Of a stretch of DNA of 64,000 nucleotides, positions 1 to 18,334 are shown in pieces. The position numbers were made by a program, and so were the translations under genes. Location of the stretch: assembly GCA_050696075.1 (NCBI GenBank), contig JBOGUF010000045.1, forward strand, positions 13,129-77,128, written 5' to 3'. Numbering within the stretch: position 1 is the first letter of the stretch; each line of letters opens with the position of its first letter. The stretch comes from Thermomicrobiales bacterium. Its GTDB lineage: Bacteria; Chloroflexota; Chloroflexia; Thermomicrobiales; UBA6265. The notes beneath the pieces were generated by a model. It was not told the origin of the DNA. It searched no databases and saw only the letters and a program-made list of their open reading frames with translations.

Positions 1-7
1 ATCTGAG

Positions 8-457
8 ATGACACCCCCCGACCTGCTGACAACCCTGCGAGCTCGCGGCGTCACGGTAACGCGCCGTGGTGATCGCGTCCGCTGCGAACCCGCTGGCAAC
101 CTGATCGATGACCTTCGCCCGGCGATCACCCGGCACAAAGCTGCCCTGCTCATGCTGCTCGACCGCGAGCGATTCACCGCCGATCCACGACCCGACCTGA
201 CCGACGACAGCGGACTGTGGAGACGCCTCCTTGCGGCAGCCTACGACCGTGACGGCCACGCTCCGGCCGGTGTCTTTGGCGCGCTCCACGGGCTACGCTG
301 CGAGGGCGCTCGGCTCGTCGTCGCGGGCGGTCGCGTCAGGCTCGAATCTGGCGAACTTGGCGACGAGTACCAGGCATTGAAGCAGTCCTCCCTCACGCCG
401 CACACGGCGGCAATCATGCGCCTATTTGCCACCATCGCTCACCCGGAGGAAGCGTGA
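8..457 (+). CDS. hypothetical mobile-element protein with TubC_N-like docking motif at the N-terminus
   Basis: 149-aa ORF that starts 1 nt after a TGA at 4-6, so the upstream gene runs off the window. The N-terminus LLTTLRARGVTVTRRGDRVRCEPAGNLIDDLRPAITRHKAALLMLL fits the short LLxxLRxxGVxLxxxGDxLRxxxPxGxL...HKxxLLxLL motif common on phage/plasmid proteins. No function can be assigned. Confidence 0.4.
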   Translation: MTPPDLLTTLRARGVTVTRRGDRVRCEPAGNLIDDLRPAITRHKAALLMLLDRERFTADPRPDLTDDSGLWRRLLAAAYDRDGHAPAGVFGALHGLRCEGARLVVAGGRVRLESGELGDEYQALKQSSLTPHTAAIMRLFATIAHPEEA

Positions 458-789
458 CGATCATCAAGGCAATCCCGGTCAATATGACCGACATCGTCGC
501 AAGCAGCGCTACCCCGGCATCAATGAGCGGCACTCCGGCGGCACTCGACCCCACGCGGCTTGAGCGGTCATTGCCCATAGGTTCGGACTCAAGATGCCAG
601 TGCGTTGGCTGCGGCCGCTATTTCAGCGGCGCTCGCGCCTTCGAAGCCCACCAGCGCCTCACCAGGGACGGTGACGTGCTCTGCCTCGACCCGGCGAGCG
701 TCGGCCTGCGCATCATCCACAGCGGCGGATTCGCCTGGTGGAGCCGCGCGGCACCACGGCTTGTGGGGAACAACGAGGAAACGACATGA
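454..789 (+). CDS. hypothetical small Cys/His zinc-finger-like protein
   Basis: 111-aa ORF. GTG 454 overlaps the previous stop (GTGA) and follows GGAGGA at 445-450. CQCVGCGRYFSGARAFEAHQRL is a CxxC-x12-H element. Confidence 0.35.
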   Translation: MTIIKAIPVNMTDIVASSATPASMSGTPAALDPTRLERSLPIGSDSRCQCVGCGRYFSGARAFEAHQRLTRDGDVLCLDPASVGLRIIHSGGFAWWSRAAPRLVGNNEETT

Positions 790-1005
790 CCTTCAATGCG
801 GTCGAGGTGAATACGAGGGCGCGGCAGCGCCGTCGCCGGCCCGCGATCAAGATGCTGCGTCCGGCTTCGTGGTCGTAATTCGATGCATCGACCCGGAACA
901 GCGCATCAAGAAGTTTCCATTCAACCGCTGACTCCAGTAGAATGGCGAGGCATCAGGTCCATACCAGTGAGTAACGGCCGCGAAACCGCGAGAGGGAGGA
1001 TCGCG

Positions 1006-3873
1006 TTGTCCAGCATTGCCATTCCGGTGAGTGCGCCGCGGATCGGGTCGCTTGTCAGCGCCCGCGAGCGAGACTGGGTTGTCTTGCCGGCCGCCGAAGA
1101 GAACGTCGTACGCCTCCGTCCGCTGACCGGCAGCGAGGAGGATGCGACCGGCATTTTTCTGCCGCTGGAGCGCTGGAAGAAGAGCGAGTTCTTGCCGCCA
1201 GACCCGGACCACTCCGGCGATACCCAAGGCGGTCTGCTTTTGCTCGATGCCGCGCGCCTCGCTCTTCGCGACGGTGCCGCGCCCTTCCGCTCGATGGGCC
1301 GCATCTCGGTCACTCCGCGCCCTTATCAATTCGTGCCGCTCATCATGGCGCTACGTCAAGATCCTGTGCGACTGCTCGTCGCGGACGATGTAGGAGTGGG
1401 GAAAACGATCGAAGCGGCCATGATCGCTCGCGAGATGCTCGACCGCGGCCTGGCGCAACGCCTGGCGGTCATCTGCCCCGCTCACCTCTGCGAGCAATGG
1501 GAGAAAGAGCTGCGGGAGAAGTTCGGAATCGAGGCGGCCGTTATTCAGCCTTCCCGGTTCGCCCGCCTGGAGCGCGAGCTGCCGCGCGGCGATTTGAGCG
1601 TCTTCCGCTACCACCGCCACCTCATCGCCAGCATCGACTTCGTCAAGGCCGGCGTCCACCGCCACCACTTCCTGGAGAACGCGCCCGACCTCATCATCGT
1701 CGACGAAGCGCACGTCGCCGCCCGCCCTCGCGGCGACCGCGGCCAGGTTCAGCACCAGCGCTACGAGTTCGTCCGTGGCCTTGCGTCAGACCCAACCCGC
1801 CACGTCATTCTGGTCACGGCAACGCCGCACAGCGGTATCGAGGAGAGTTTCCGCTCGCTCCTTGGCTTGCTCGACCAGCGCTTCGACGCCCATGGCCTCA
1901 ACCCGCCGCCCGAGCTCGATCGGTCTGCCCTCGTCCCGCACGTCGTTCAGCGGCGTCGCGATGACCTGGCCCACTGGCCCGGCGGTGACACGCCGTTCCC
2001 CCAGCGCGAGTCGAAGGAGCACCGCTACGCCCTCAGCGCCGACTACTACCGCCTCTTCGAGGACGTCCTCGCCTATTGTCGCGGCACGGTGGACGCCGGG
2101 CGCGGCCTGCGTGCCCAGCAGCAGCGCGTTCGCCACTGGGCCGCCATCGCCCTCCTGCGCTGCGTCCTCTCCAGCCCTGCCGCCGCTTCCTCGGTCTTGA
2201 GCGCGCGTGCCAAGCGGCTCCACGACGGAGAGGCGCCGGTCGATCTCTTCGAGTCGCCCGACGACGCCGATGCTGCTTACCGCCCGCAGGTGCTCGACGC
2301 AATCGGCGAGGAACAGGCCGGCGACTACGTCCCGGCCGCTCCTCTCGAAGACGCCGAACCCTTCCTCGACGACGCCGAGCGCCGGCGGCTTGCCGGGTTC
2401 CTGAAGGGCGCCCGTAACCTCGAAGGCCCAGTGAAGGACGCCAAGCTGGCCGAGGCTGGGAAAGCGGTCGGCGACGCCCTTCGCGACGGCTTCCGGCCGA
2501 TCGTCTTCTGCCGCTTCATCGCCACCGCCAACTATGTAGCCGCTTCGCTCGGGAAAACCCTCGGCAAGGAGTTTCCCGGCCTTCGCGCCGTCGCCGTCAC
2601 CGGCGAGATCGGCCACGAGGAGCGCCGCGCCATCATCGACGAGCTGGTTGCGGAACCCGGTCCGCGCGTCCTCGTCGCGACCGACTGCCTGAGCGAGGGG
2701 ATTAACCTCCAGGAGCACGTCGACGCCGTCCTCCATTACGATCTGCCCTGGAACCCGAACCGGCTAGAGCAGCGTGAGGGCCGCGTCGACCGCTTCGGCC
2801 AAGCCAAGCCGGTCGTCCGCGTTGGCCTCCTCTACGGCGCCGACAATCCTATCGACGGCGTCGTCCTCGACGTCCTGATCCGCAAGGCGCGGACGATCCG
2901 CAACCGGCTCGGCATCGCCATACCCGTTCCGGAAGACACCGAGCAGGTCGTCCAGGCCGTCGTCGAGAGCGTCCTCCTGCGTGGGCGCGGGCCGCAGGCC
3001 CAATTGCAGTTGGATTTCGGCGCCTCCGATGTGAGCCGCCTTCACGCGACGATGGACGCCGCCGCCGAAAAGGAGGCGAGCCAGCGCCGCTACTTCGCCC
3101 AGCGCGGTATCAAGCCGGAGGAAGTGGCCCGCGAAGTCGCCGCGACCGTTCCCGTCCTGGGCGACGAAGAAGCCGTCCAGCGCTTCCTCGCCAATGCCGC
3201 CCAGCGCCTCGCCGGTTCGCTCCGGGCGACGGGTCGCAACGGTGTCTTCGACCTCTACCCCGGCGACCTCGCCGACGACCTGGAGCGGCGCGGTTACGAG
3301 GGAAATCCGCTCCGCGTCACCTTCGACGCCCTCACCGACCCCGACGCGCATTGCCTTGGCCGCACGCATCCGGTCGTTTCCGCCTACTGCGATGCGGTCC
3401 TTGGCAAGGCGCTCGGTCCCGAGCCGGACGCACGGTTCGCGCGCTGTGGCGCGGTCTTCACCAACGCCGTCACCAGGCGCACTGCCGTTGTGCTTCTCCG
3501 GCTGCGCTATCTCCTCCGCGAGAAGGTCGAGGAGTTCGCGGAGGAGGTCGTCCTCGTCGCCATCGAGAGCCAGGGCGGTCAACCGCGTTGGATCGAGCCG
3601 CTCGATACCGCCGCCCGCGAGCTCCTGACGGCAGCAGACCGACCCGTCGCCAACATGAGTCAGTCCGAGCGCGCAGAGCACGTCCAGTGGGCGCTCGGCC
3701 TCCTTGACCGCACCCCCAGTTGCTACCAGCCGATCGTCCAGTGGCGGGTCGAGCAGCTCCAGGCGTCGCACAACCGGCTGCGCAAGCTCGTCAAGGCGTC
3801 GCCGCTCAAGGTGGATGCGCACGATCCTGACCTCCTCGGCTGCTACGTCCTCGTGCCCGGAGGGAGCCGCTGA
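1006..3873 (+). CDS. SNF2-family helicase (DISARM DrmD-like)
   Basis: The ORF in the track is 883-3873. I prefer TTG 1006, which lies 5 nt after GGGAGGA at 994-1000; GTG 1027 is an alternative. Motifs seen: Walker A LLVADDVGVGKTIEAAMIAREML, DEAH box LIIVDEAHVAARP, ILVTATPHSG, and the C-terminal helicase lobe LVATDCLSEGINLQEHVDAVLHYDLPWNPNRLEQREGRVDRFGQ. Confidence 0.85.
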   Translation: MSSIAIPVSAPRIGSLVSARERDWVVLPAAEENVVRLRPLTGSEEDATGIFLPLERWKKSEFLPPDPDHSGDTQGGLLLLDAARLALRDGAAPFRSMGRISVTPRPYQFVPLIMALRQDPVRLLVADDVGVGKTIEAAMIAREMLDRGLAQRLAVICPAHLCEQWEKELREKFGIEAAVIQPSRFARLERELPRGDLSVFRYHRHLIASIDFVKAGVHRHHFLENAPDLIIVDEAHVAARPRGDRGQVQHQRYEFVRGLASDPTRHVILVTATPHSGIEESFRSLLGLLDQRFDAHGLNPPPELDRSALVPHVVQRRRDDLAHWPGGDTPFPQRESKEHRYALSADYYRLFEDVLAYCRGTVDAGRGLRAQQQRVRHWAAIALLRCVLSSPAAASSVLSARAKRLHDGEAPVDLFESPDDADAAYRPQVLDAIGEEQAGDYVPAAPLEDAEPFLDDAERRRLAGFLKGARNLEGPVKDAKLAEAGKAVGDALRDGFRPIVFCRFIATANYVAASLGKTLGKEFPGLRAVAVTGEIGHEERRAIIDELVAEPGPRVLVATDCLSEGINLQEHVDAVLHYDLPWNPNRLEQREGRVDRFGQAKPVVRVGLLYGADNPIDGVVLDVLIRKARTIRNRLGIAIPVPEDTEQVVQAVVESVLLRGRGPQAQLQLDFGASDVSRLHATMDAAAEKEASQRRYFAQRGIKPEEVAREVAATVPVLGDEEAVQRFLANAAQRLAGSLRATGRNGVFDLYPGDLADDLERRGYEGNPLRVTFDALTDPDAHCLGRTHPVVSAYCDAVLGKALGPEPDARFARCGAVFTNAVTRRTAVVLLRLRYLLREKVEEFAEEVVLVAIESQGGQPRWIEPLDTAARELLTAADRPVANMSQSERAEHVQWALGLLDRTPSCYQPIVQWRVEQLQASHNRLRKLVKASPLKVDAHDPDLLGCYVLVPGGSR

Positions 3874-6800
3874 TGGCCTACGCCGCGATCGAGATCGAGG
3901 GTGGGCTCTTCCCGGCGGATCTGCTCGACCGGATCGCCGCCGGCGAGGGCGCCGGCCAGGCCGCGAAGGAGTTCGGCCTCGACGGCCGCCGCCTCTCCGA
4001 CGAGACGCAGGCCGCCTTCTCCGACGTCCGCTCCTACTGGGACGCCTTCCAGCGCCGCCGCGAGCACTCCCGCGAGAGTCTGACCAGTCTCACGCGGGAG
4101 AGCTGGATGATCCCCGCCCTCGAACGGCTCGGCTTCGATCTCGTCTACCAGCGTGCCGGCCTCGCGGTCGGCGCCGAGAGCTATCAGATCTCGCACCTGG
4201 CCGGCGATGATCCGTCGGCTCCGCCGCTGCATGTCGTCGCCATCGACCAGGACCTCGGCAAGAAGGAGGGCGCCCGTCGCAGTCCCCACGCCCTCGTCCA
4301 GGAGTACCTCAATCGCTCCGACGCGCTCTGGGGCATCGTCACCAACGGGGAACGACTGCGCCTCCTGCGCGACTCGAACCGCCTCTCTCGCCCCACCTAC
4401 CTTGAGTTCGATCTGCGGGGAATGATCGAGGCGAATCTCTACAGCGAGTTTGTTCTCCTCTACCGCCTCCTCCATCGGACGCGTTTTCCGCGGAGTGCTG
4501 GCGCCGCCGCCTCGTGCATTCTGGAAAGGCTCTACCAGGAAGGGCTCGACGAAGGCGGGCGCGTCCGGAAGCACCTGCGCGACGGGGTCGAGCAGGCGCT
4601 GGAGATCCTCGGCAATGCCTTCCTCTCGCACCCGGAGAGCGGAGACTTGAGAGCGGCCTTCGAGCGCGGCCATCTCGACGCCGCCCGGTACTATCGGCAG
4701 CTCCTGCGTCTCGTCTACCGCCTCCTCTTCCTCTTCGTCGCCGAGGAGCGGCGCCTCATCTTCCCGCCCGACTCGACCACGACCGATCTGCACGAGATCT
4801 ATTCGCGTTACTACAGCGCGAACCGTCTCCGCGACCGGTGCGAGCGCCCCTACGGTGGCGACCGGTTCGGTGACCTCTGGCGGGGTCTTGTGCGGACCTT
4901 CGAACTCCTCCGCGACGACGAGACCGCGAGGATGCTGGGCCTCACGGCACTCGACGGCGAGCTCTTCGGGCCGTCCGCCTGCCGGGACCTGGAGACCGCC
5001 CACTGCCACAACCGCGACCTGCTCCGGGCGATCTTCCACCTCTCGACCTTCAAGGACGAAAAGGTCCGCCGCCGCGTCAACTACGCCGGGCTCGACGTCG
5101 AGGAGCTTGGCTCCGTCTATGAGAGCCTCCTCGAATACCGCCCTGCCGTCCGTCTCGATGATCCTAGGCCGTTCCAGCTCGTCGCCGGCAGCGACCGCAA
5201 GACGACCGGCTCCTACTACACCCCGCCCGAGCTGGTCCGCGAGCTGATCGAGTCCGCGCTCGTCCCGGTCCTGAACGAGCAGCTTGCCGCCGCGAAGACG
5301 CGGGAGGAGCAGGAGCGAGCGATCCTCAGCCTGAAGGTCTGCGATCCGGCGTCCGGCTCGGGTCACTTCCTCCTCGCCGCCGCCCGCCGACTGGGAAGGG
5401 AGTTGGCGCGCGTTCGTACCGGCGAAGCCGAGCCCGCGCCCGATGCCTACCGTCTCGCCGTCCGCGACGTCATCCGCTCCTGCATCTACGCCGTCGACAA
5501 GAACCCGCTCGCCGTCGATCTCTGCAAAGTCGCCCTCTGGATCGAGGGCCACCACGCCGGCCTACCCCTTTCCTTCCTCGACTATCACATCAAACACGGC
5601 GATAGCCTGGTTGGGGTCTTTGACCTCGCGGTGCTGAGGCAGGGCATCCCGGACGATGCGTACAAGTCGGTGACCGGTGACGACAAGAAGTTTGCTATCC
5701 ACGTCCGAAAGCTCAACACGACACGGTCGCTCGACTATGCCGATGGCTTTCCAGATCTGGACGGCGAGTTCGCTCGGGAGTTCGGCGCGCTTGCGCTCCT
5801 TGATGAGCGGAATGCCAATGACGTCCGGGCGAAGGAACAGATCTACGCGCAGCTCCGCGACCCGGAGACCGTCTGGTGGACCTGGAGGCGGGCGTGCAAC
5901 CTCTGGACCGCCGCCTTCTTCGCGCCGCTTGTCGAGGACGCGCCGCGACGCTTTTCGGGATCACTCGCGCCGCTGACGGAGGACGTCCATCGAGCGCTCA
6001 CGCAGCCGAAGTCGCTCGATGCTGAAGTCGGCGGACGGGCCGACGCGCTGGCTGATCGGCTCGCCTTCTTCCATTGGCCGCTTGAGTTTCCCGAGGTATT
6101 CGAGGCCGGCGGCTTCGACGTGGTTCTCGGCAACCCGCCGTGGGAGCGGATCAAGCTGCAAGAGCAGGAGTTCTTCGCCGCGCGCGATCCGGCGATTGCC
6201 ACCGCGTCGAACAAAGCCGCGCGCCAACGCCTGATCGATCGACTACCCGAGAGCGATCCGGCGCTTGCCCGAGCGTTCGCGGACGCGAAGCACGACGCCG
6301 AGGCGGCGAGCACGTTCCTTCGCGCATCCGGCCGCTTCCCACGCACCGGCCGCGGCGACATCAACACGTACTCCGTCTTTGCCGAGCAAACGGCCCGGAT
6401 GGCGGGTCATCGCGGTCGTGGCGGCGTGCTCGTGCCGACCGGCATCGCCACCGACGACACCAACAAGCACTTCTTCCGCTGGCTGGTCGAGCACGGCCGC
6501 TTGGTCAGCCTCTTCGACTTCGAGAACCGCGAGGGGCTCTTCCCCGCGGTCGACAGCCGCATGAAGTTCTCGCTGCTGACGGTGAGCGGGGCGGAGCGGC
6601 CGGCGGCGCCATTCGAGGCCGCCTTCTTCCTCCTCCAGCCAGCCGAACTGCGCGACCCGGAAAGCCGCTTCACCCTGTCGGCGGACGACATCGCCCTCCT
6701 CAACCCGAACACCCGCACCTGCCCCATCTTCCGCTCGGCGCGGGACGCCGAGATCACCAGGGCGCTCTACCGCGCCGCGCCGGTGCTGATCAACGAGGCG

Positions 6801-8429
6801 ACCGGCGAGAACCCGTGGGGCGTCACGTTCAAGCGCATGTTGGACATGTCGAACGACTCCCACCTCTTCCGGACGCGGGCGGAGCTGGAGGGAGATGGCG
6901 CGATCCTCGGGCCGGATGGCCGGTTCCGGCGGGGCGACGAGGTGTGGGAGCGACTTTATCAAGGAATGATGTTCCAAAACTATGACCACCGAGCGGCCGA
7001 CATTGTGCATAGCGCAACGGCGGCTCAACGCCAGAATCAACCGATTGATATCTCAACCGAGGAACATAACGATTCCAGTCGCCTCGCGATACCGATGTAT
7101 TGGGTACATGAGCAGGACATCGCCGCTCGCCTGGTCGATTATTGCCGAGAGTGGTTTGTCGCATTTGCAAATGTGACCAGTCCGACGAACATGACGACGG
7201 TTAAATTGACTATCCTGCCGCGAACCGCTGCCGGTCATAGCCTTCAGCTCATACTCCCGAAAGACACAGTCAGTGCTTCACGAGTTGCTGCCCTCGCCGC
7301 CAATCTCAACTGCCTCGCCTTTGACTGGGTTACTAGGCAAAAGATTGGAGGCGTGAACCTCAGCTACTTCATCGTCAAGCAGCTTCCCGTCCTTCCGCCC
7401 GAGACCTACACCCTGGACCTGCTCGATGAGATCGTCACCCGCGTCCTGGAGCTGGTCTACACGGCGCACGACCTGGTGCCCTTCGCGCGGGACTGCGGCT
7501 GCGACGGCCCGCCGTTCGACTGGGACGAGGAGCGGCGGGCGCAACTGCGGGCGGAGCTGGACGGCATCTACGCTCATCTCTACGGGCTGAACCGTGACGA
7601 CTTCGCCTACATCCTTGGCACCTTCCCTGTGCTGGAGAAGAACGAGCGAAAGGCGTTCGGGGAGTACCGCACCAAGCGCCTCTGCCTCGACGCCTATGAC
7701 CGCTTCACCGATCTGAGCGGTGAGGCTGCCGCCGCGGTGCGCCACGTCTTCGTGTTGCCCGAGGCTCCAGCCCGACCGGAGCCTGTCGCCGGCCTGATGG
7801 CCGCCGAGCCTCCGCCCTCTCCATACGATGCGCGGGCGGACGAATCGCCCAGTGTGACCGGCCACGACCGCTACCGGCAGGCGGCTGTCGTGGCGTGGCT
7901 CGCGAACCAAAGCGCGGGCGATCCGACTTTCGGCCGCACCAAGCTCGCCAAGGAGCTCTACTTCCTTCAAGAGCACCTTGGGGTCGATCTCAACCTCGAA
8001 TTCGTCCGCGAGGCCGCCGGTCCGCTCGATCCGAAGCTCTATCCCGTCGAGGGCCTGGCGCAAAAGCAGAGCTGGTTGACCGTCACCAAGCAGCGCCGAA
8101 TCGTCCGCTACCGGCCGGGCCGCAAGGCGGCCGAAGCGGACGGCGTCGCGCTCCGCTTCCTCTCCGACCGCCTCGCCGACGTCGAGGCACTGGTGACCTT
8201 CTTCCGTCCCTTCGACTGGCTCACCATCGAGCAGTGGGCAACCGTCCATCAGGTCTGGCGCCAGCGCCGCGAGCAAGGGCAGCCGCTGACGAAGTCGGCC
8301 ATCCTCGACGAGGTCCTCGCCTGGAAGCCGTCCCGCAGCGGCTTTGACCGGCGCTCGATCGCGCAGGTCATCGACGCGATGATCGAGCATGGATTTGTCG
8401 CGCTGCCCGATCATCAACCGCGCACATGA
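3873..8429 (+). CDS. large Eco57I-type (gamma-class) N6-adenine DNA methyltransferase with extra C-terminal domain (DISARM DrmMI-like)
   Basis: 1518-aa ORF whose ATG overlaps the SNF2 stop (TGATG at 3871-3875). Motif order is GSYYTPPELV, then motif I VCDPASGSGHFLLAAARRLG, then motif IV VLGNPPWERIK (NPPW). The tail LDGIYAHLYGLNRDDFAYILGTFPVLEKNERKAFGEYRTKRLCLDAYD is, from memory, typical of this long MTase family. A Pro-rich linker (~7740-7865) precedes a separate ~190-aa C-terminal domain. Confidence 0.85.
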   Translation: MAYAAIEIEGGLFPADLLDRIAAGEGAGQAAKEFGLDGRRLSDETQAAFSDVRSYWDAFQRRREHSRESLTSLTRESWMIPALERLGFDLVYQRAGLAVGAESYQISHLAGDDPSAPPLHVVAIDQDLGKKEGARRSPHALVQEYLNRSDALWGIVTNGERLRLLRDSNRLSRPTYLEFDLRGMIEANLYSEFVLLYRLLHRTRFPRSAGAAASCILERLYQEGLDEGGRVRKHLRDGVEQALEILGNAFLSHPESGDLRAAFERGHLDAARYYRQLLRLVYRLLFLFVAEERRLIFPPDSTTTDLHEIYSRYYSANRLRDRCERPYGGDRFGDLWRGLVRTFELLRDDETARMLGLTALDGELFGPSACRDLETAHCHNRDLLRAIFHLSTFKDEKVRRRVNYAGLDVEELGSVYESLLEYRPAVRLDDPRPFQLVAGSDRKTTGSYYTPPELVRELIESALVPVLNEQLAAAKTREEQERAILSLKVCDPASGSGHFLLAAARRLGRELARVRTGEAEPAPDAYRLAVRDVIRSCIYAVDKNPLAVDLCKVALWIEGHHAGLPLSFLDYHIKHGDSLVGVFDLAVLRQGIPDDAYKSVTGDDKKFAIHVRKLNTTRSLDYADGFPDLDGEFAREFGALALLDERNANDVRAKEQIYAQLRDPETVWWTWRRACNLWTAAFFAPLVEDAPRRFSGSLAPLTEDVHRALTQPKSLDAEVGGRADALADRLAFFHWPLEFPEVFEAGGFDVVLGNPPWERIKLQEQEFFAARDPAIATASNKAARQRLIDRLPESDPALARAFADAKHDAEAASTFLRASGRFPRTGRGDINTYSVFAEQTARMAGHRGRGGVLVPTGIATDDTNKHFFRWLVEHGRLVSLFDFENREGLFPAVDSRMKFSLLTVSGAERPAAPFEAAFFLLQPAELRDPESRFTLSADDIALLNPNTRTCPIFRSARDAEITRALYRAAPVLINEATGENPWGVTFKRMLDMSNDSHLFRTRAELEGDGAILGPDGRFRRGDEVWERLYQGMMFQNYDHRAADIVHSATAAQRQNQPIDISTEEHNDSSRLAIPMYWVHEQDIAARLVDYCREWFVAFANVTSPTNMTTVKLTILPRTAAGHSLQLILPKDTVSASRVAALAANLNCLAFDWVTRQKIGGVNLSYFIVKQLPVLPPETYTLDLLDEIVTRVLELVYTAHDLVPFARDCGCDGPPFDWDEERRAQLRAELDGIYAHLYGLNRDDFAYILGTFPVLEKNERKAFGEYRTKRLCLDAYDRFTDLSGEAAAAVRHVFVLPEAPARPEPVAGLMAAEPPPSPYDARADESPSVTGHDRYRQAAVVAWLANQSAGDPTFGRTKLAKELYFLQEHLGVDLNLEFVREAAGPLDPKLYPVEGLAQKQSWLTVTKQRRIVRYRPGRKAAEADGVALRFLSDRLADVEALVTFFRPFDWLTIEQWATVHQVWRQRREQGQPLTKSAILDEVLAWKPSRSGFDRRSIAQVIDAMIEHGFVALPDHQPRT

Positions 8430-8438
8430 TGGGAAGGA

Positions 8439-9335
8439 TCATTGGGACGGTCGCCACGAGCCGCGCACTGCGTGCCAGCGCGCATCGTCCTCCGGTTCGC
8501 CGCTTAGGACGGGATCAAGAAAGTCAGCGGCCAGCCGGTGTCCGGTCGCAAGGTCCGGTTCGAGTCCGACCTCCGTGGCGAGCCGTCGATACACAGTTGC
8601 CCAGCTCGACGGCGGGGATGGAAGTGCCGCGGGAATGGCGTGCGTTCCCCTGGCGGTGAAGGTGACGTCGAGTGCGTGCCGCAAGCGGCCTGCCTCGAAG
8701 TCGGCGGCAGAGCGGATCAGGACCAGGTCGATGAGGTCTTTGACCCGCGAGCTGGGGTGTTGCCCGCCAAAGGTGCGCGTGTAGGCGTGAACCTTCTCGG
8801 CGAGATGTTGTTCAAGGGGCAGCGCCGGGACCTCGATCGGTTCGAACCCCGCAAAGCCGAAGAAATCCGGTCCGTGCAGGCGATCAGGCGTGCCAACCAG
8901 TGGATCGCCGAATCCGACGTCGATGATCGCGTCCTCAAAGCGGCGGCCGTCGAGTCCGGCCGTGACGTGGTAGCGCACGGCGGCGCCTTCGAGATCGGGG
9001 TCCATCTTTCCTTGCCGCTCGATCTCGAACGTGAAGAAATCGCCGAGGTCGAGCGATTGGGCGGCGATGAGGTCCGTGGTCGCCGCCTCCTCGCTGTCCT
9101 GACGGGCAAGGTCCAGATCCCTGGTGGTGCGGGCACGGTCGCCGAGCCGCAGGTCCAGGGCCAGGCCGCCCTTGACGATCCATCGATCCGGGGCGACGAC
9201 GAGCAGGCGAGCCAGCAGGCGGTCGAAGACGACCATCTTACGCAGGCGCCCGAGCGCACGCTGGTCCTGCCGAGCCGCCGTATTGAGCCGCTGTTCCAGC
9301 GCGGCGCGGAACGCGGTCGCGGTGGCGTACCTCAT
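8439..9335 (-). CDS. abiEii: AbiEii/AbiGii-family nucleotidyltransferase toxin (type IV TA)
   Basis: 298 aa. The N-terminus MRYATATAFRAALEQRLNTAARQ...LRKMVVFDRLLARLL...WIVKGGLALDLRLGDRARTTRDLDLA is the characteristic AbiEii/DUF1814 nucleotidyltransferase fold signature. It overlaps the upstream antitoxin gene by 4 nt. Confidence 0.8.
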   Translation of the reverse strand: MRYATATAFRAALEQRLNTAARQDQRALGRLRKMVVFDRLLARLLVVAPDRWIVKGGLALDLRLGDRARTTRDLDLARQDSEEAATTDLIAAQSLDLGDFFTFEIERQGKMDPDLEGAAVRYHVTAGLDGRRFEDAIIDVGFGDPLVGTPDRLHGPDFFGFAGFEPIEVPALPLEQHLAEKVHAYTRTFGGQHPSSRVKDLIDLVLIRSAADFEAGRLRHALDVTFTARGTHAIPAALPSPPSSWATVYRRLATEVGLEPDLATGHRLAADFLDPVLSGEPEDDARWHAVRGSWRPSQ

Positions 9336-9934
9336 CTCGTCACCTGGTCGATGGCGCCGGCAATGAGACGGGCAACGCGTTGGCTCCGCTCCAGGGCGGC
9401 CTGCCGGAGCAGCGTGCGGGTCGTCAGTCCCCGTTCGATGGCCTGCCTGACCGCGAGCTCGATTTGCTCCGGGCCGATGCCCACCTCGGCCGCGTCGAGA
9501 ATCGTCCGTGTGGCCGACGTGAGCCGAATGCCGTCGCGGACAGCGATGTCGCCCGGCTGGAGGGACTTGGACGTGGTGTGGATAGTCAGACCCGGCAGCG
9601 TCGCCAGATAACGCTTCGAGCGCGGCACCGTGAGGTGGATGCTATCAGGGATCACGTCGCTCAGGCCGTACAGGTCGAGCGCGCTCTCGTGCGACACCAC
9701 GGCCACGTCCTTGCCGACGGCGAGCCAGGCGGCGGCGACCTCGTCCCGCGGCGAGGACGGGTAGTCGCGAAAGCGATAGAGCCCTCGGTGGGTTCGAGTA
9801 AACTTACCGCTTCGCGTATGATATGTGAGCAGATTCCAGTTGAAACCGCAGGCACGGGCTTGTGCGGTTGTAAAGTAACCGTGCTGCCCGGACGCGGTCG
9901 CGAAGAGGCAGGAAAGATCTGGGTCGCTGGCCAT
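9332..9934 (-). CDS. abiEi: AbiEi-family antitoxin / transcriptional regulator
   Basis: The track ORF is 9332-9973. The N-terminal wHTH-type segment SGQHGYFTTAQARACGFNWNLLTYHTRSGKFTRTHRGLYRF is typical of AbiEi_4. I prefer the ATG at 9934 (MASDPDL...) because the 9946 and 9973 starts would place an inverted repeat inside the coding region. Confidence 0.75.
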   Translation of the reverse strand: MASDPDLSCLFATASGQHGYFTTAQARACGFNWNLLTYHTRSGKFTRTHRGLYRFRDYPSSPRDEVAAAWLAVGKDVAVVSHESALDLYGLSDVIPDSIHLTVPRSKRYLATLPGLTIHTTSKSLQPGDIAVRDGIRLTSATRTILDAAEVGIGPEQIELAVRQAIERGLTTRTLLRQAALERSQRVARLIAGAIDQVTR

Positions 9935-9944
9935 CGTGTCATCC

Positions 9945-9969
9945 ATTCCTTCAGTATATTTGAAGGAAT
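9945..9969. promoter_or_regulatory. perfect 9-bp inverted repeat (ATTCCTTCA-N7-TGAAGGAAT), candidate AbiEi operator in the abiE / helicase divergent region
   Basis: Read directly from the sequence: ATTCCTTCA at 9945-9953, spacer GTATATT, TGAAGGAAT at 9961-9969. It sits in the only AT-rich patch between the abiEi start and the helicase start (10026). AbiEi proteins are known autorepressors that bind inverted repeats. Confidence 0.35.
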
Positions 9970-10025
9970 CCATGACAGACCAGGACCAGCGAAACCTACT
10001 GCAATGTGGGACCGGGAGGGTAAGG

Positions 10026-13000
10026 ATGTCGCTTGACGTTTTCGCGCTCCGCGATCGCGTCGTCGGCGAGTATCGCGACTACTTCGAGAGCTTCGTCCGC
10101 ATCCTCGACGAGCGGATCGACGGCTTCGTCCGCGATTCGCTCCGCGACGGCGAGCTCTGGCCCGACGCCGTCCTCCAGCTCAACCCCGCCTACGAGCGCG
10201 GACAGACGCTCGGCGAGTTAGCCAATCAGGGTCTTATCGCCCGCGAGACTGCCCGGTTCTTCGGCCCCAACTTGCGGCTCCACAGGCACCAGGAGGAGGC
10301 GCTCGGCATCGCCCAGTGCAGCGAGCCCTACATCGTCAGCACCGGGACCGGCTCCGGCAAGAGCCTCACCTATCTCCTGCCCATCGTCGACCATGTCTTT
10401 CGTCACAACCCTGATCGCCCGACGGTTCGCGCGGTCATCGTCTACCCGATGAACGCTTTGGTAAACAGCCAGATCGACGCGCTCGAACACTTCAAGCGGG
10501 AGAACTGGCCGGACAGTCCGCTCCACTTTGCCCGCTACACCGGCCAGGAGCGTGACGCGGAGCGCGAGGCGATCATCAACAACCCGCCGCACATCCTCCT
10601 CACCAATTACGTCATGCTGGAGTACATGCTCCTCCGCCCCCACGAGCGGACGCTGCTCCGGACCGCGACCAAGGAGCTGAGCTTCCTCGTCATCGACGAG
10701 CTGCATGTCTACCGTGGCCGCCAGGGCGCCGACGTTGCGATGCTCACGCGTCGCGTTCGTCAGAAGGCGGGTCAGGACATCCAGCTCGTCGGCACCAGCG
10801 CCACGATCGCGACCGGCGGCTCCCGCGACGATCGCCAGGCGCGCATCGCCGACGTCGGTTCAACCCTCTTCGGCGTCCGCGTTCCTGCCGCGAACGTCGT
10901 GGACGAGACGCTCCAGCGGATCGCCGCCGTTGCCGTCCCGAGGACCCAAGCGGAGTTGCGCACGGCAGTGCAGTTGCCGCCGCCCGCGCCGTCGGATGCC
11001 GGCGTGCGGAACCACCCGCTCGCCGCCTGGCTCGAAGAGACGTTCGGCCTCCAAGAGGAAGACGGGCGCCTGATCCGGCGAGAGCCGGTCACCTTCACCG
11101 ATGGTCTCAAGCGGCTGGTTGAGGCAAGCGGTTTGCCGACGGATCTTTGTCGCGAGCGCCTCATGGCTGCCCTGGAGGCAGGGAATGCCGTCCGCACCAA
11201 TACCGGCGATCCGCTCTTTGCCTTCCGCCTCCACCAATTCCTCGCCTCAGGCAGCAGCGTCTACGCGACGATCGAGCAGCCCGACAGCCGCCAGCTCACA
11301 CTTGCAGGGCAGTTCGTCGCGCCGGACGAAGACGATATCGAGGAAGGGAGCGCCGGTGAGCAGCCAAAGCTCCTCTATCCGCTGGCCTTCTGCCGCGACT
11401 GCGGCCAGGAGTATTACCTGGTCTCTCGCGCCGATCTCGACGGTGGCGAGCGCCTGCTCCCCCGCCTCCCGCTCCTGAACGCTCCGGACGACGAATTACC
11501 CGGCATGTACGGTTTCTTCGCTGTGGAGACCGGCGACCTCTGGCCCGAGGAAACGCCCGGCGATACTCGCCGCCTGACCCAACTTCCCGAGTTCTGGTTC
11601 GAGCAGCGCAAATCCGGACCGAAGGTTCGGCAGCGGTACGAGGAGCACATTCCGCTTGAGCTATGGGCGCATCCCAGCGGCGCCGTCAGCTGGGAGCCGG
11701 TGCAGGGCGCGGTTCATGGTTGGTTCCAGGCACGTCCCTTGATGCTGTGCCTTCGCTGCCGTGCCAGCTACACCCTTAGAGACAAGAGCGACTTCCGCAA
11801 GCTCGCCACCCTCAGTCAGACCGGGCGCTCGACCGCAACGACCATCCTGAGCAATGCCGCGGTCGGCGGGCTCCGGGCGGCCCATCCCGAGGACCGCGGT
11901 GGCAACAAGGTCCTCAGCTTCACCGACAACCGCCAGGATGCCTCCCTCCAGGCGGGCCATCTCAATGACTTCGCGCAAATTACGCTCCTGCGTGGCGCCC
12001 TCTCCCGTGCGCTGACCGAGCAAGACGAGTTGACCTTTTCGCGGCTCGGTCCCGCGATCCTTGCCGCGCTCGGTCCCAAGCCCGAGGAGTTCATGCGGGA
12101 ACCGGTTGACTCCGGTCCAGGACACGACAGCGCGCGGGCCGTGATGGTCAATCTCCTCACGTACCGGGCATTTGAGGATCTTCGGCGCGCCTGGCGGATT
12201 GCCCAGCCGAATCTCGAACAGGTTGGGTTGCTCTCGCTCCGCTACGCGGGAATGGAGGAGCTTGCCCTTGATGATGCGCGCTGGTCCGACGTGCCGGTAT
12301 TGGCAGCCGCGAGCGGTCATAAGCGGTGGGAGGTTCTTCAGGCGATCCTCGATCACCTTCGTGGACTGCTCGTCATCGACGCCGAGTGCCTCCAAGCCGA
12401 GAGCACCCGCGAGTTGGTCAATCGAGCCAACCAATGGCTACGCACGCCCTGGTCGATCGATCGCCGCGAGCGGCTGCGGGAAAGCGTCATCGCGCGACTG
12501 CCCGGCATAGGCATGCCCGAGCACGACCGGGACTCAACGATCGGCCTCAGTTACCGTTCTACATTAGGACGCTACCTTCGCTCCCGCCACACCTGGGATC
12601 TGCCGAGCGATCTCTCGGCAACCGATGTGGATGCGATGGTGCTCGGCATCGTCGCCGTGTTGCGCGGCCACGTTCTTACCGTTGTTACGAAGGATGGGGA
12701 GGACTACGGCGTCCAGATCAAGGCGGACGTGGTCCGCTGGCAGCGCGGCGATGGCCGAGCCGCGGGCCTCGATCCGGTCCGCGCCAGGGCTCTCCATAAG
12801 CGGCGCCTGGAGATGCTCTCGACCGAACCGAACGCGTTTTTCTCGCGCCTCTATCAAGAGCCATCTCGCCTTCTCGCGGGTATCACCGGCGCCGAGCACA
12901 CCGGCCAGGTTGACAGGGAGACCCGGTTGGTGCGCGAGCGTGAGTTCAAAGCCGGGCAACTGGCCGCGATGTTCTGCTCGCCGACGATGGAGCTGGGCGT

Positions 13001-15194: not shown

Positions 15195-15429
15195 AGCCTC
15201 ACCTCGTATCTGCGTCAACTCATGCGAAGCCCCGTTTGCTCACAGCATGGTGACAAAGTGAGGTGAGCTGCCCCAGTGGTCGCACGACACGCCAGGGCAG
15301 CGGCTTCCCGTGCGCGCGTATGAGGGACAGGGGCAGGGCTGATTAGCGCGTCGCCGGCGGCGTATTCTTCGAAATCATTAGCAGTTTGCGCAACTCTGCA
15401 TGCTGGCGCATGCGAGAGAAGGCAGCGAG

Positions 15430-16035
15430 ATGGGTGGCTACGGATCAGGCACCAGGCTCTTCAAGAAACCATCGACCGACCGGGCGTTCGCGCTCGACGT
15501 GCGCCAGCTTGCGCGACGCGGCGGACTGGCGCCCGGCGACCACACCTACACGTGGCCCGGTCTCCTCGGCGATGCGGTGGTTGCATACTCCGTCGAAGGC
15601 GACACGCTGACCCTCGCGTACCAGATCAGTTCGCCATTCGACGGCGATCGGCACGTGCGGCAGCCGGTCGCGCTGGTCCGCACGCCCTGTCACTACGGGG
15701 GCGAGCGCCCGTGGTTTGCGTGTCCAGGTTGCGGCGGTCGCGTCGCCGTCCTACACCTGCTTGGACTGCACTTCCGTTGCCGACGTTGCCACGGCTTGGT
15801 CTACGCCTCGACACGCGAGGACCAGGGACGGCGCCAGTTCCGCAAGGCCAACCGCCTGCGCGCCCAGCTCGGCGCTCCGCCGGTCCTGGGCCTCATTCCT
15901 CGACGGCCGGCGTGGCTGAGTTGGCGCCGGTACTGGCGCACCGTTGACCGCATTCGAGAACTGGACGCCCAATACCTCGACGGGATGGACGCCCACGTTG
16001 CGACCTTGCGCCAGGCCGCAGGACTCGACACGTGA
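15430..16035 (+). CDS. hypothetical zinc-ribbon protein
   Basis: The track ORF is 15400-16035. I prefer ATG 15430 (MGGYGSG...). CHYGGERPWFACPGCGGRVAVLHLLGLHFRCRRCHGLVYAS is a CxxC...CxxC ribbon. From memory it resembles a widespread uncharacterised family. Confidence 0.5.
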   Translation: MGGYGSGTRLFKKPSTDRAFALDVRQLARRGGLAPGDHTYTWPGLLGDAVVAYSVEGDTLTLAYQISSPFDGDRHVRQPVALVRTPCHYGGERPWFACPGCGGRVAVLHLLGLHFRCRRCHGLVYASTREDQGRRQFRKANRLRAQLGAPPVLGLIPRRPAWLSWRRYWRTVDRIRELDAQYLDGMDAHVATLRQAAGLDT

Positions 16036-16701: not shown

Positions 16702-16730
16702 GAGGGAAGCGGTGAACCTCCGCTTCCCTC
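16702..16730 (-). terminator. GC-rich hairpin just downstream of the leftward operon
   Basis: GAGGGAAGCGG-tgaacct-CCGCTTCCCTC forms a perfect 11-bp stem. It lies 10 nt beyond the stop of the 16740-17327 gene. There is no U-tract on either strand. Confidence 0.35.
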
Positions 16731-16739
16731 GGGTGGTGG

Positions 16740-17327: not shown

Positions 17328-17556
17328 CGTCAGGCATCCTTTCACGCATAGGGGACGTTGCGATCGGGAGAGCGCCGCCGGCTGGGCGGGGACACGGCGC
17401 CATGTCCCCGCCGTGCGGCGCGTCGTCGCGTCAACCTCGCTGGGGCAGGTGGTCAGGCGGCTGGCCGTCGGACCTGGCATGCGATCACACCGGACGAATC
17501 GCGCCGAGCCGGGGGCGAGGAGGGAGCGACCGGCGTTGGTCGCTCCCCGGTGAGGG

Positions 17557-18305: not shown

Positions 18306-18334
18306 TAGGAATACTGCACAATTGCGGCAATGAA

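What the first reader, a model, noticed from the sequence alone, without database searches (positions are those of the whole stretch)
7740..8429. Panacea/DUF4065-like domain fused to the C-terminus of the defence methyltransferase, next to a TA module
**Seen:**
- After the conserved MTase-family tail (…GEYRTKRLCLDAYDRF) there is a Pro-rich linker (PEAPARPEPVAGLMAAEPPPSPYDARADESP).
- A ~190-aa domain follows, beginning DRYRQAAVVAWLANQSAGDPTFGRTKLAKELYFLQEHLGVDLNLEFVREAAGPLDPKLYPVEG.

**Known:** the core KLxKxLYFxQ...(F)x...GP(h)xPxLY is, from memory, the signature of the SocA/Panacea (DUF4065) domain. That domain is a promiscuous antitoxin/adaptor domain of TA systems.

**Inference:** the MTase may carry a regulatory or toxin-neutralising adaptor. 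The convergent neighbour only 9 nt away is the AbiEii toxin gene, so a functional connection is conceivable but unproven.
Basis: partly seen in the sequence, partly recalled or inferred. Interest (0 to 1): 0.55.

Follow-up and report, generated by a model that had tools for sequence, protein, structure and literature searches.

The report
DarG-antitoxin-like domain on defence methyltransferase
The tail of this defence DNA methyltransferase is a real, folded ~180-residue domain, but it belongs to the family of the toxin-binding domain of the DarG antitoxin (possibly a distant cousin of Panacea), a large unnamed family mostly fused to restriction-modification subunits, and nothing ties it to the neighbouring AbiE toxin-antitoxin pair.

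Summary
ORF 3873-8429 (+) encodes a 1518-aa DrmMI/Eco57I-like N6-methyltransferase. Its family-typical end (GEYRTKRLCLDAYDRF, aa 1263-1278) is followed by a Pro-rich linker and a folded domain (aa ~1334-1510; AF2 pLDDT 86).

- **Not Panacea.** The domain does not match Pfam PF13274 even at E<=10.
- **DarG C-terminal family.** It is homologous to the DarT-binding C-terminal domain of DarG. Family-to-family hhalign gives 98.5%, E 3e-15, and the best PDB fold match is 7yk3_B.
- **Distribution.** The family has no Pfam model and at least 1286 cluster representatives. It is almost always C-terminal. Of the 94 closest representatives, 64 are type I HsdS, and a few are MmeI-like or DrmMI-like enzymes.
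- **Possible remote Panacea link.** A Panacea model's only notable PDB hit is DarG's C-terminal domain.
- **No tie to AbiEii.** AbiEi/AbiEii is a complete cassette. It sits where two of four other domain-bearing loci have the methyltransferase and helicase genes adjacent, and none of the four has AbiE.
- **Charge.** Unlike acidic DarG and Panacea, this version is basic (pI 9.5), mainly in the wing.

I suggest it binds DNA or a partner inside its own complex. Function is untested.

The parts
1006..3873 (+). SNF2-family helicase (DrmD/DpdE-like), first gene of the three-gene system. The mechanical ORF starts at 883; the public annotation starts at 1006.
   Evidence: Pfam SNF2-rel_dom and Helicase_C. 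PADLOC DpdE 2e-184 and DrmD 3e-94. It is conserved next to the domain-bearing methyltransferase in L001, L006, L007 and L010.
3873..8429 (+). 1518-aa N6-adenine DNA methyltransferase (DrmMI-like / Eco57I-type IIG-like) that carries the C-terminal domain.
   Evidence: Pfam Eco57I 4.9e-16 and N6_Mtase. PADLOC DrmMI 3.8e-80. Thousands of homologues, mostly 1290-1350 aa.
7659..7706 (+). Conserved family tail motif GEYRTKRLCLDAYDRF (aa 1263-1278), the normal end of the methyltransferase family.
   Evidence: Position. Homologues without an extension end shortly after the equivalent motif.
7707..7871 (+). Pro/Ala-rich, low-confidence linker (aa ~1279-1333).
   Evidence: Sequence. pLDDT is below 50 for the last linker residues included in the model. 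The only 3 differences from the public record lie here.
7872..8402 (+). DarG-C-terminal-domain-like module (aa ~1334-1510): an N-terminal winged helix with a strongly basic wing (LTVTKQRRIVRYRPGRK), followed by a helical bundle.
   Evidence: NCBIfam DarG positions 168-337 of 338, E 2e-7. PADLOC DarG 5.6e-9, MTase_I C-terminus 2.6e-10, Specificity_I C-terminus 5e-9. AF2 model. Foldseek top hits 7yk3_B/D. Family HMM 186.9 bits and DarG-CTD HMM 32.5 bits. Charge profile.
8439..9335 (-). AbiEii nucleotidyltransferase toxin. It is part of an independent TA cassette, not part of the domain's system.
   Evidence: Pfam PF08843 7e-28. PADLOC AbiEii 3.8e-92, full length. No homologue in the four other domain-bearing loci.
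9332..9934 (-). AbiEi antitoxin/transcriptional regulator, the cognate partner of AbiEii. The ORF extends to 9973; the public call is 200 aa.
   Evidence: Pfam AbiEi_4 1e-9. PADLOC AbiEi 4.6e-64. Public gene call.
10026..15194 (+). DEAD/DEAH helicase with a C-terminal MZB (DUF1998-type) Zn-binding domain (DruE/DrmA+B-like), third gene of the system.
   Evidence: Pfam DEAD, Helicase_C and MZB. PADLOC DruE 6e-89. It follows the methyltransferase gene directly in L001 and, after ~290 nt, in L006. Homologues are present in L006, L010, L001 and L007.

Best explanation
**What it is (shown).** The last ~180 residues of the methyltransferase are a member of the DarG C-terminal domain family: a winged helix plus a helical bundle. 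A ~55-residue Pro-rich linker tethers it to the normal end of the enzyme. The family is large and has no Pfam model. It is almost always found at the C-terminus of DNA-recognition or DNA-methylation subunits: mostly type I HsdS, also HsdM, MmeI-like and DrmMI-like enzymes. The experimentally studied relative is the part of DarG that binds and sequesters the DarT toxin. The family may be a remote relative of Panacea (suggestive, not proven).

**Context (shown).** The domain is an optional, sporadically distributed add-on of the methyltransferase in a three-gene SNF2 helicase / methyltransferase / DEAD-DUF1998 helicase system. The AbiEi/AbiEii pair next to it is a complete, self-sufficient TA cassette. 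It appears inserted, in opposite orientation, between the methyltransferase and helicase genes. It is not the domain's partner.

**How it most likely works (inferred).** DarG's domain and Panacea are acidic. The restriction-modification-fused version is basic, with the charge concentrated in the wing of the winged helix. I therefore propose that it does not act as a DNA-mimicking antitoxin. Instead it would be a tethered docking module acting within its own complex. It would bind nucleic acid, or an acidic surface of a partner subunit such as one of the two helicases, and so help target or restrain the complex.
For: **Family membership**
- DarG profiles match the whole domain: NF048014 positions 168-337 of 338, E 2e-7, and PADLOC DarG, E 5.6e-9.
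- A 63-sequence DarG-CTD alignment against the 142-sequence family alignment gives hhalign probability 98.5%, E 3.3e-15, over 171 columns.
- A DarG-CTD HMM scores the window domain at 32.5 bits, E 4e-12.
- The best PDB fold matches of the AF2 model (pLDDT 86) are 7yk3_B/D, the M. tuberculosis DarTG complex. Probability is 1.0 and TM 0.59-0.62 over ~193 columns. The next matches are winged-helix DNA binders (F-93, RTP, ArsR, MarR).
- DarG's C-terminal domain sequesters DarT (PMC7003065).

**Distribution**
- 1286 representatives at E<=1e-3. A median of 9 residues follows the domain.
- 64 of the 94 closest are Methylase_S proteins, plus MmeI- and Eco57I-type enzymes.
- 77 genomic loci across many phyla.

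**Optional add-on**
- Only 4 of the 120 best methyltransferase homologues have it.

**No cis toxin partner**
- In 69 loci the only recurrent neighbours are HsdR (46) and HsdM (41). About eleven operons are just M-S(domain)-R. Other downstream genes are heterogeneous.
- L001 and L006 have SNF2, methyltransferase and helicase genes contiguous, with no TA.
- No AbiE homologue occurs in L001, L006, L007 or L010.

**Charge**
- The window domain has pI 9.5. The fused family has median pI 9.2, against 5.9 for DarG-CTD and 4.9 for Panacea.
- In the wing region the net charge is +7 in the window and +3.4 in the family, against -3.6 in DarG.
Against: - No experiment and no complex prediction bears on what the domain binds. 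The DNA- or partner-docking role rests on charge, fold and context only.
- Homology to two toxin-neutralising domains favours a protein-neutralising role.
- Panacea-type domains are known for swapping partners, so the lack of a conserved neighbour does not exclude a different partner in each locus.
- In one locus (L028) an HsdS carrying the domain is followed directly by darT-darG. A toxin-tethering role is therefore possible at least there.
- The invariant residues lie largely in the helical bundle, not in the wing.
- Only five DrmMI-type loci with the domain were examined.
Confidence: 0.6

Rival explanations
1. Tethered antitoxin or adaptor for a separately encoded toxin or effector. Like DarG's C-terminal domain or a PanA antitoxin, the domain would bind and silence a toxic protein. 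That protein could be DarT-like or could differ from locus to locus. This would couple toxin release to the state of the restriction-modification-like complex, as EcoprrI masks the PrrC anticodon nuclease (my own knowledge).
For: - Strong homology to the DarT-sequestering domain (PMC7003065).
- DarTG is often embedded in type I restriction-modification operons between hsdS and hsdR (PMC5179494; PMC12255303).
- In L028, hsdS(+domain) is directly followed by darT-darG.
- Many HsdS(+domain) genes are followed on the same strand by defence-type genes (TIR, McrBC, AAA_21, S8 peptidase, RhuM).
- In other homologues the methyltransferase C-terminus carries different accessory modules.
Against: - No recurrent partner gene in 69 loci.
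- About eleven minimal M-S-R operons, and the minimal L006 system, have no extra gene.
- No DarT or DarG in the window or in any other of the loci held at that point by tblastn. None of the 80 DarTG loci fetched afterwards has a second copy of the domain within 1.5 kb.
- The fused version is basic, whereas both toxin-neutralising relatives are acidic.
- No PADLOC hit for the small ORFs downstream of the helicase in the window.
Confidence: 0.2
2. Winged-helix DNA-binding domain acting as a transcriptional autoregulator of the operon, as some type II methyltransferases carry an HTH that represses their own promoter (M.SsoII-type; my own knowledge).
For: - The N-terminal half is a canonical winged helix by fold search (F-93, RTP, ArsR, MarR).
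- The wing is basic.
- No partner gene is needed.
Against: - The conserved unit is ~190 aa with invariant residues in the C-terminal helical bundle, more than a simple operator-binding HTH.
- The same module occurs on four unrelated enzyme architectures with unrelated promoters.
- No operator-like repeat was looked for or found upstream of the system.
Confidence: 0.12
3. One reading: a bona fide Panacea (PF13274) domain that neutralises, or adapts the methyltransferase to, the adjacent AbiEii toxin.
For: - The shared motif is aligned in register with Panacea.
- AbiEii lies 9 nt away, convergent.
Against: - No PF13274 match at E<=10, with a positive control at 84.6 bits. The local Panacea HMM gives -1.1 bits.
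- AbiEii has its own full-length AbiEi with a promoter-proximal inverted repeat.
- The cassette is on the opposite strand.
- It is absent from all four other domain-bearing loci. In two of them the methyltransferase and helicase genes are adjacent at the site the cassette occupies here.
Confidence: 0.03

Closest known systems
C-terminal (DarT-binding) domain of DarG, the antitoxin of the DarTG2 system (NCBIfam NF048014; PDB 7yk3 chains B/D)
   Same: - Same domain family over its full length: hhalign 98.5%, E 3e-15.
- It is the best fold match of the window model.
- The shared motifs are kept: KLxKxxYFxQ, (A/Y)GP, E..ATVxxW and W...K..F.
- In both proteins the domain lies at the C-terminus behind a linker.
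- Both are linked to restriction-modification loci.
   Different: - Here the domain is fused to a 1300-aa methyltransferase, not to a macrodomain.
- No DarT is nearby.
- The charge is reversed: pI 9.5 against ~5.9, and wing +7 against -3.6.
- ssDNA mimicry is the mechanism named in the title of Deep et al. 2023, which I could not read. The reversed charge makes it unlikely here.
Panacea / SocA domain (Pfam PF13274, formerly DUF4065) of PanA antitoxins
   Same: - It shares the N-terminal helix plus the KLQKLxYYxQ ... GPxxPxLY signature in the same order and register. hhalign P is 0.005-0.007 against the fused family and 1.3e-4 against DarG-CTD.
- An AF2 model of a Panacea protein (pLDDT 91) has DarG's C-terminal domain, 7yk3_B, as its only notable PDB hit (probability 0.75; next hit 0.05).
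- Both are antitoxin-type protein-binding modules.
   Different: - It fails the PF13274 model.
- Similarity is limited to ~50 residues. Conservative block-shuffle controls give p of only ~0.01-0.035. TM is only 0.37-0.45.
- Panacea proteins are small, acidic, free-standing and paired with a toxin gene. This domain is basic, fused, and has no conserved toxin neighbour.
DrmMI, the methyltransferase of class 1 DISARM
   Same: - Best PADLOC family for the methyltransferase core.
- It is encoded next to a DrmD-like SNF2 helicase and a large helicase carrying a DUF1998/MZB domain.
   Different: - The helicase is a single ~1720-aa DEAD+MZB protein that scores better as DruE than as DrmA.
- No separate DrmB and no DrmC/PLD gene was seen.
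- The C-terminal domain is absent from most family members.
AbiE (AbiEi/AbiEii) type IV toxin-antitoxin system
   Same: The neighbouring genes 8439-9335 and 9332-9934 are a complete AbiE pair.
   Different: It is a separate module on the other strand. It is not conserved with the domain and has no detectable relation to the domain.

Membership tests
Panacea / SocA (Pfam PF13274, DUF4065) | Matches the PF13274 profile at or near its gathering score (25.7 bits) | tested here: not met
   No Pfam hit for the domain at E<=1 or E<=10. The control Panacea protein P0272 scores 84.6 bits. A local Panacea HMM gives -1.1 bits. None of the 94 closest family representatives hits PF13274 at E<=0.01.
Panacea / SocA (Pfam PF13274, DUF4065) | Signature KLxKLxY[FY]xQ ... 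GPxxPxLY after an N-terminal helix | tested here: met
   TKLAKELYFLQ ... AAGPLDPKLY is present. hhalign aligns it in register with the Panacea motif.
Panacea / SocA (Pfam PF13274, DUF4065) | Same fold as Panacea | tested here: inconclusive
   The Panacea AF2 model's top PDB hit is DarG-CTD 7yk3_B, but with E 0.14, probability 0.75 and TM 0.37-0.45. The window model found no Panacea-like protein in the viral structure library, only half-length winged-helix matches. No solved Panacea structure was among the PDB hits.
Panacea / SocA (Pfam PF13274, DUF4065) | Encoded as a pair with a cognate toxin that it neutralises | tested here: not met
   Genomic part only. There is no conserved toxin neighbour in 4 other DrmMI-type loci or in 69 HsdS-type loci. 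The adjacent AbiEii has its own AbiEi. Neutralisation itself cannot be tested here.
DarG C-terminal (DarT-binding) domain | Sequence-profile homology over the whole C-terminal domain | tested here: met
   NF048014 positions 168-337 of 338, E 2e-7. PADLOC DarG positions 164-327 of 329, E 5.6e-9. hhalign 98.5%, E 3.3e-15, 171 columns. DarG-CTD HMM 32.5 bits. Caveat: the family profile does not find the M. tuberculosis DarG chain by sequence in the PDB.
DarG C-terminal (DarT-binding) domain | Same fold as the solved DarG C-terminal domain | tested here: met
   The Foldseek top two PDB hits are 7yk3_B and 7yk3_D, with probability 1.0 and TM 0.59-0.62 over 193-196 columns.
DarG antitoxin (whole protein, NF048014) | N-terminal macrodomain (ADP-ribosyl glycohydrolase) | tested here: not met
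   The N-terminal partner is an Eco57I/N6_Mtase methyltransferase with no Macro hit. A bona fide DarG (L028) shows Macro, 7.7e-24. The score is far below the NF048014 cut-off (30.8 against 250 bits).
DarG antitoxin (whole protein, NF048014) | Adjacent darT (DUF4433) toxin gene | tested here: not met
   tblastn with a verified DarT finds nothing in the window. The ORFs downstream of the system have no PADLOC DarT hit.
DarG C-terminal (DarT-binding) domain | Acidic character consistent with DNA mimicry | tested here: not met
   The window domain has pI 9.5 and net charge +4. DarG-CTD has median pI 5.9. The wing region is +7 here against -3.6 in DarG.
DISARM class 1 (DrmMI methyltransferase) | N6-adenine methyltransferase matching DrmMI profiles, next to a DrmD SNF2 helicase | tested here: met
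   PADLOC DrmMI 3.8e-80 and DrmD 2.8e-94 (though DpdE scores higher). Pfam Eco57I and N6_Mtase.
DISARM class 1 (DrmMI methyltransferase) | DrmA helicase plus a separate DrmB (DUF1998), with optional DrmC (PLD) | tested here: inconclusive
   One ~1720-aa protein combines DEAD, Helicase_C and MZB/DUF1998. Its best PADLOC hits are DruE (6e-89), and DrmA reaches only 2e-15. No PLD gene was found among the neighbours scanned.
AbiE toxin-antitoxin (neighbouring genes) | AbiEii (PF08843) with an adjacent, overlapping AbiEi regulator | tested here: met
   PF08843 7e-28 and PF13338 1e-9. Full-length PADLOC hits of 3.8e-92 and 4.6e-64. The genes overlap by 4 nt.

The most novel reading that the evidence does not exclude
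The DarG-CTD/Panacea-type antitoxin fold has been recruited, with its charge reversed, as a built-in safety catch or sensor of restriction-modification-like systems. This would apply to over a thousand HsdS, HsdM, MmeI-like and DrmMI-like proteins. Tethered to the specificity or methylation subunit, it would bind and restrain the toxic restriction or helicase subunit of its own complex. Alternatively it would deliver that subunit to a protease, as SocA does for SocB. It would release the subunit on a phage cue. This would make restriction-modification systems and TA systems mechanistically continuous. It would also explain why DarTG so often sits inside type I restriction-modification operons.
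Probability: 0.15. Interest if true: 0.8.

Novelty: new variant of a known kind. Interest (0 to 1): 0.55.

Why it matters
DarG's C-terminal domain is known only as the part of one antitoxin that sequesters one toxin. This analysis shows it is the tip of a large family with no Pfam model. That family is fused mainly to the DNA-specificity and methyltransferase subunits of restriction-modification-type defence systems in many phyla. It also shows a possible remote link to Panacea.

Jankevicius et al. [quoted passage not shown] These findings give a concrete, testable handle on that question.

They also flag an accessory domain that current annotation misses entirely. In practice, these tails should not be annotated as Panacea, and neighbouring TA cassettes should not be read as their partners.

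The charge reversal relative to the antitoxin relatives suggests a change of function. That change can be tested with simple binding and truncation experiments.

Tried and rejected
- **No hits in standard libraries.** Pfam, PHROGs and single-sequence PDB searches of the domain gave nothing. The word-indexed homologue search found only 3 relatives. The exhaustive profile search was needed.
- **PDB by profile.** The family profile did not retrieve the M. tuberculosis DarG chain by sequence. Only the fold search did.
- **Viral structure library.** It returned half-length winged-helix matches and no Panacea-like protein.
- **Locus scan.** A narrower 8-sequence alignment worked. This biases the 77 loci toward HsdS-type members.
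- **Conserved partner gene.** BLAST clustering of neighbours found only HsdR and HsdM. My greedy ORF caller dropped genes overlapping a longer ORF, which is how DarT in L028 was first missed. I therefore re-scanned all loci by tblastn for DarT and DarG; only L028 has them.
- **HsdS(+domain) and DarTG travelling together.** Rejected: 0 of 80 DarTG loci have a second copy of the domain within 1.5 kb.
- **Insertion scars.** I found no convincing direct repeats flanking the AbiE cassette.
- **Alternative extension.** The other ~290-aa C-terminal extension of some methyltransferase homologues has no Pfam hit. I call it Toprim-like from memory of its motifs only.
- **Unreadable paper.** Deep et al. 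2023 (the DarTG complex structure) is not in the held library. I could not map DarT-contacting residues onto the alignment.
- **Panacea statistics.** hhalign's analytic P values (1e-4 to 7e-3) are weakened by conservative block-shuffle controls (2 of 150 and 8 of 230 shuffles reach the real score). I treat the Panacea link as plausible, not established.
Full report
**1. The observation**

ORF 3873-8429 (+) encodes a 1518-aa protein. Its core is an Eco57I/N6_Mtase-type adenine methyltransferase (Pfam). Its best match among defence-system profiles is DrmMI, at 3.8e-80.

The motif GEYRTKRLCLDAYDRF lies at aa 1263-1278. Close homologues without an extension stop 10-40 residues after the equivalent motif; P0153, for example, is 68% identical and 1317 aa.

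A Pro/Ala-rich linker follows (aa ~1279-1333). The convergent neighbour 8439-9335 (-) is AbiEii, and 9332-9934 (-) is AbiEi. The domain proper is ~7872-8402, and the finding's start coordinate of 7740 lies within the linker.

**2. Is it Panacea?**

- The 229-aa and 199-aa C-terminal pieces have no Pfam hit at E<=1 or E<=10.
- A genuine Panacea protein used as a positive control scores 84.6 bits on PF13274.
- A Panacea HMM built locally from 120 PF13274 proteins gives the window domain -1.1 bits.
- None of the 94 closest family representatives hits PF13274 at E<=0.01.
- PHROGs and a single-sequence PDB search found nothing.

**3. What it is**

Two curated DarG profiles match the domain across the whole C-terminal half of DarG. 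NCBIfam NF048014 matches at positions 168-337 of 338, E 2e-7. PADLOC DarG matches at E 5.6e-9. PADLOC models for a type I methyltransferase and for type I specificity subunits match it with their own C-terminal ends.

AlphaFold2 gives a confident model, with pLDDT 86.4 and pTM 0.82. It shows an N-terminal winged helix (helices at residues 11-27, 36-50, 57-63 and 70-79, and a beta-hairpin at 83-96) followed by a five-helix bundle.

The two best PDB matches are chains B and D of 7yk3, the M. tuberculosis DarT-DarG complex. Probability is 1.0 and TM is 0.59-0.62 over ~193 columns. After them come only winged-helix DNA-binding proteins that cover the N-terminal half.

I then collected 63 DarG C-terminal domains from DarTG loci. 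Their alignment matches the alignment of 142 homologues of the window domain with hhalign probability 98.5%, E 3.3e-15, over 171 columns. A DarG-CTD HMM scores the window domain at 32.5 bits.

Experiments show that this part of DarG is sufficient to bind DarT and to counteract its toxicity (Lawaree et al., PMC7003065). The domain is therefore a member of the DarG C-terminal domain family. That family has no Pfam model: a bona fide DarG shows only its Macro domain.

**4. How big the family is and where it sits**

An exhaustive profile search found 1286 cluster representatives at E<=1e-3, and 544 at E<=1e-10. In the best 150 the domain is nearly always at the very C-terminus, with a median of 9 residues after it.

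Of the 94 closest representatives, 64 are type I specificity subunits (Methylase_S). Two are MmeI-like and two are Eco57I-like methyltransferases.

A genome scan returned 77 loci. They span Planctomycetota, Acidobacteriota, Pseudomonadota, Bacteroidota, Bacillota, Verrucomicrobiota, Chloroflexota and Spirochaetia, plus one archaeal MAG.

An HMM built without the window's near relatives scores the window domain at 186.9 bits. Invariant or nearly invariant positions include the K of KLxK, the GP of AAGPLD, E..AT, and two tryptophans. The window sequence keeps most of them, including KLxK, the GP of AAGPLD, E..AT and the tryptophans.

**5. Is it generic to this methyltransferase family? Does it go with a toxin?**

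It is not generic. Among the 120 best homologues of the methyltransferase core, only four carry the domain: the window protein itself, P0260, P0246 and the truncated P0228. Others carry a different ~290-aa extension or an inserted DUF559. The C-terminus of this family thus appears to be a slot for variable accessory modules.

I examined four further loci with a domain-bearing methyltransferase of this family.
- **L001 and L006:** SNF2, methyltransferase and DEAD/MZB helicase genes are contiguous.
- **L007 and L010:** the same three genes are present in a different order.
- None of the four has an AbiEi or AbiEii homologue within 10 kb.

In L001 and L006 the helicase gene follows the methyltransferase gene directly or after ~290 nt. 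In the window that position holds the 1.5-kb AbiE cassette on the opposite strand. The cassette is complete. Both proteins give full-length PADLOC matches, and a 17-nt inverted repeat lies just upstream of abiEi. [quoted passage not shown]

**6. Is there any conserved partner?**

In the 69 HsdS-type loci where I could place the domain gene, clustering of neighbours found only HsdR (46 loci) and HsdM (41 loci). About eleven operons are simply M-S(domain)-R.

The 58 other same-strand downstream genes are a typical defence-island mix: McrBC, RhuM, TIR, AAA_15/21, subtilase and Schlafen-like.

One locus, L028, has hsdR-hsdM-hsdS(+domain)-darT-darG. No other locus held at that point has DarT or DarG. 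None of the 80 DarTG loci fetched afterwards has a second copy of the domain within 1.5 kb. A cis-encoded toxin partner is therefore the exception, not the rule.

**7. Relation to Panacea**

I recovered genuine PF13274 proteins and compared profiles.
- The fused family against Panacea aligns 53 columns, with P 0.0046-0.0069.
- DarG-CTD against Panacea aligns 46 columns, with P 1.3e-4 and probability 53%.
- In both cases the aligned region is the first helix, KLxKLxY..Q and GP....LY, in register.

The controls weaken this. Reversed alignments score far lower. But conservative block shuffles, which keep the motif blocks intact, reach the real score in 2 of 150 and 8 of 230 trials.

There is one independent line of evidence. 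An AF2 model of a Panacea protein (pLDDT 91) has 7yk3_B, DarG's C-terminal domain, as its top PDB hit out of 350,542 chains. Probability is 0.75, against 0.05 for the next hit, but TM is only 0.37-0.45.

I rate a true remote relationship as plausible, roughly 55-65%, and unproven. I found no paper in the held library that links DarG's C-terminal domain to Panacea or to HsdS. The structural paper on 7yk3 could not be read.

**8. Mechanism**

*Shown.* The family identity, the fold, the distribution, the optional nature of the domain, the independence from AbiE, and the absence of a conserved cis partner.

*Also shown, and bearing on function.* The fused version is basic. The window domain has pI 9.5 and the family median is 9.2. 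DarG-CTD has a median pI of 5.9 and Panacea 4.9.

The difference is concentrated in the wing hairpin and the segment after it. Net charge there is +7 in the window (LTVTKQRRIVRYRPGRK) and +3.4 on average in the family, against -3.6 in DarG.

*Inferred.* The title of Deep et al. 2023 attributes DarT inhibition to ssDNA mimicry by the acidic DarG domain. A basic winged helix tethered by a long flexible linker to DNA-recognition subunits is more likely to bind nucleic acid, or an acidic surface of a partner in its own complex.

My best explanation is therefore an intra-complex docking or regulatory module. The main rival is a tethered antitoxin or adaptor with locus-specific partners (0.2). A plain transcriptional autoregulator (0.12) and the AbiEii-specific reading (0.03) follow. 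None of these can be separated without binding data or complex prediction.

**9. Comparison, novelty and score**

The domain is a member of the DarG C-terminal domain family by sequence and fold. It lacks the macrodomain, the DarT neighbour and the acidic character that define DarG as an antitoxin.

It is not a member of PF13274. The host protein is DrmMI-like. The system's large DEAD+DUF1998 helicase scores better as DruE, and no PLD gene was seen, so I leave the DISARM assignment open.

I class the finding as a new variant of a known kind: a known antitoxin domain family in a new, widespread and unannotated fusion context with changed surface properties.

Interest is 0.55. What is there would moderately surprise a specialist, and it makes the old question of crosstalk between restriction-modification and DarTG testable.

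**Caveats**
- The locus sample is biased toward HsdS-type members.
- Only five DrmMI-type loci were seen.
- Gene calling in the fetched loci was a simple ORF heuristic.
- Literature coverage is incomplete.

Noticed in passing
window 7819, 7823, 7845: Compared with the public record that holds this locus (GCA_975325355.1, contig CDICZW010000074.1), 18,429 aligned bases differ at only three positions. All three lie within 27 nt of the Pro-rich linker: S1316Y, one silent change, and S1325T. I cannot tell whether this is strain variation or an assembly difference.
   Followed up: partly
window 9937-9953 / 9961-9977: A 17-nt inverted repeat (TGTCATCCATTCCTTCA / TGAAGGAATCCATGACA, 88% complementary, 7-nt spacer) lies immediately upstream of abiEi on the minus strand. 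It is a likely AbiEi operator. It overlaps the start of the mechanical ORF of the helicase gene.
   Followed up: no
proteins P0231, P0234, P0238, P0250, P0255, P0258, P0261, P0265, P0266 (methyltransferase homologues, not in the window): A second, unrelated ~290-aa C-terminal extension occurs on other members of the same methyltransferase family. It has conserved LFVEG.TD ... LADND..GR motifs. I call it Toprim-like from memory; it has no Pfam hit. P0196 has a DUF559 endonuclease-fold domain inserted at aa 1182-1284, and P0203 carries a precomputed DUF559 hit. The methyltransferase tail looks like a hot spot for accessory modules.
   Followed up: partly
L028 8144-12307 (Moraxellaceae MAG): The type I operon hsdR-hsdM-hsdS(+domain) is followed directly by darT (PADLOC 1.6e-56) and darG (1.6e-133). 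Two paralogous copies of the domain therefore flank DarT. This arrangement is unique among the loci examined.
   Followed up: yes
L168 1396-1602 and L169 658-861: Two members of the 'ERWATV' subclade of the domain are each followed 12-16 nt downstream by a homologous 67-68-aa protein (…NTPTRVIG.KLGRTEDA…SLKPTNQ.PYNRRK). One member is a half-HsdS fusion and the other is a stand-alone 188-aa protein. The small protein has no homologue in the window or the other loci. It may be a subclade-specific small partner.
   Followed up: partly
window 1-800 and 15400-20532; tRNA-Asp 20241-20316 (-): The defence system appears to sit on an integrative element. Upstream in the public contig are an SNase-domain protein and an AAA_25 ATPase, followed within the window by TubC_N-like and phage zinc-binding-like small proteins. 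Downstream is a large serine recombinase (18664-20532) whose mechanical ORF runs over a tRNA-Asp gene. Four ORFs between the helicase and the recombinase (15400-18663) have no Pfam or PADLOC hit.
   Followed up: no
L001 15012-18282: In the freshwater metagenome locus with the most divergent domain-bearing methyltransferase (P0013), the three-gene system is followed by an AriA/OLD-like AAA_15/AAA_21 ATPase (PADLOC AriA 1e-21) and an unannotated 323-aa protein. This resembles a PARIS-type pair.
   Followed up: no
window 36337-36700 (-): A tmRNA gene with tag peptide GKTQELAYAA. It is unrelated to the finding.
   Followed up: no
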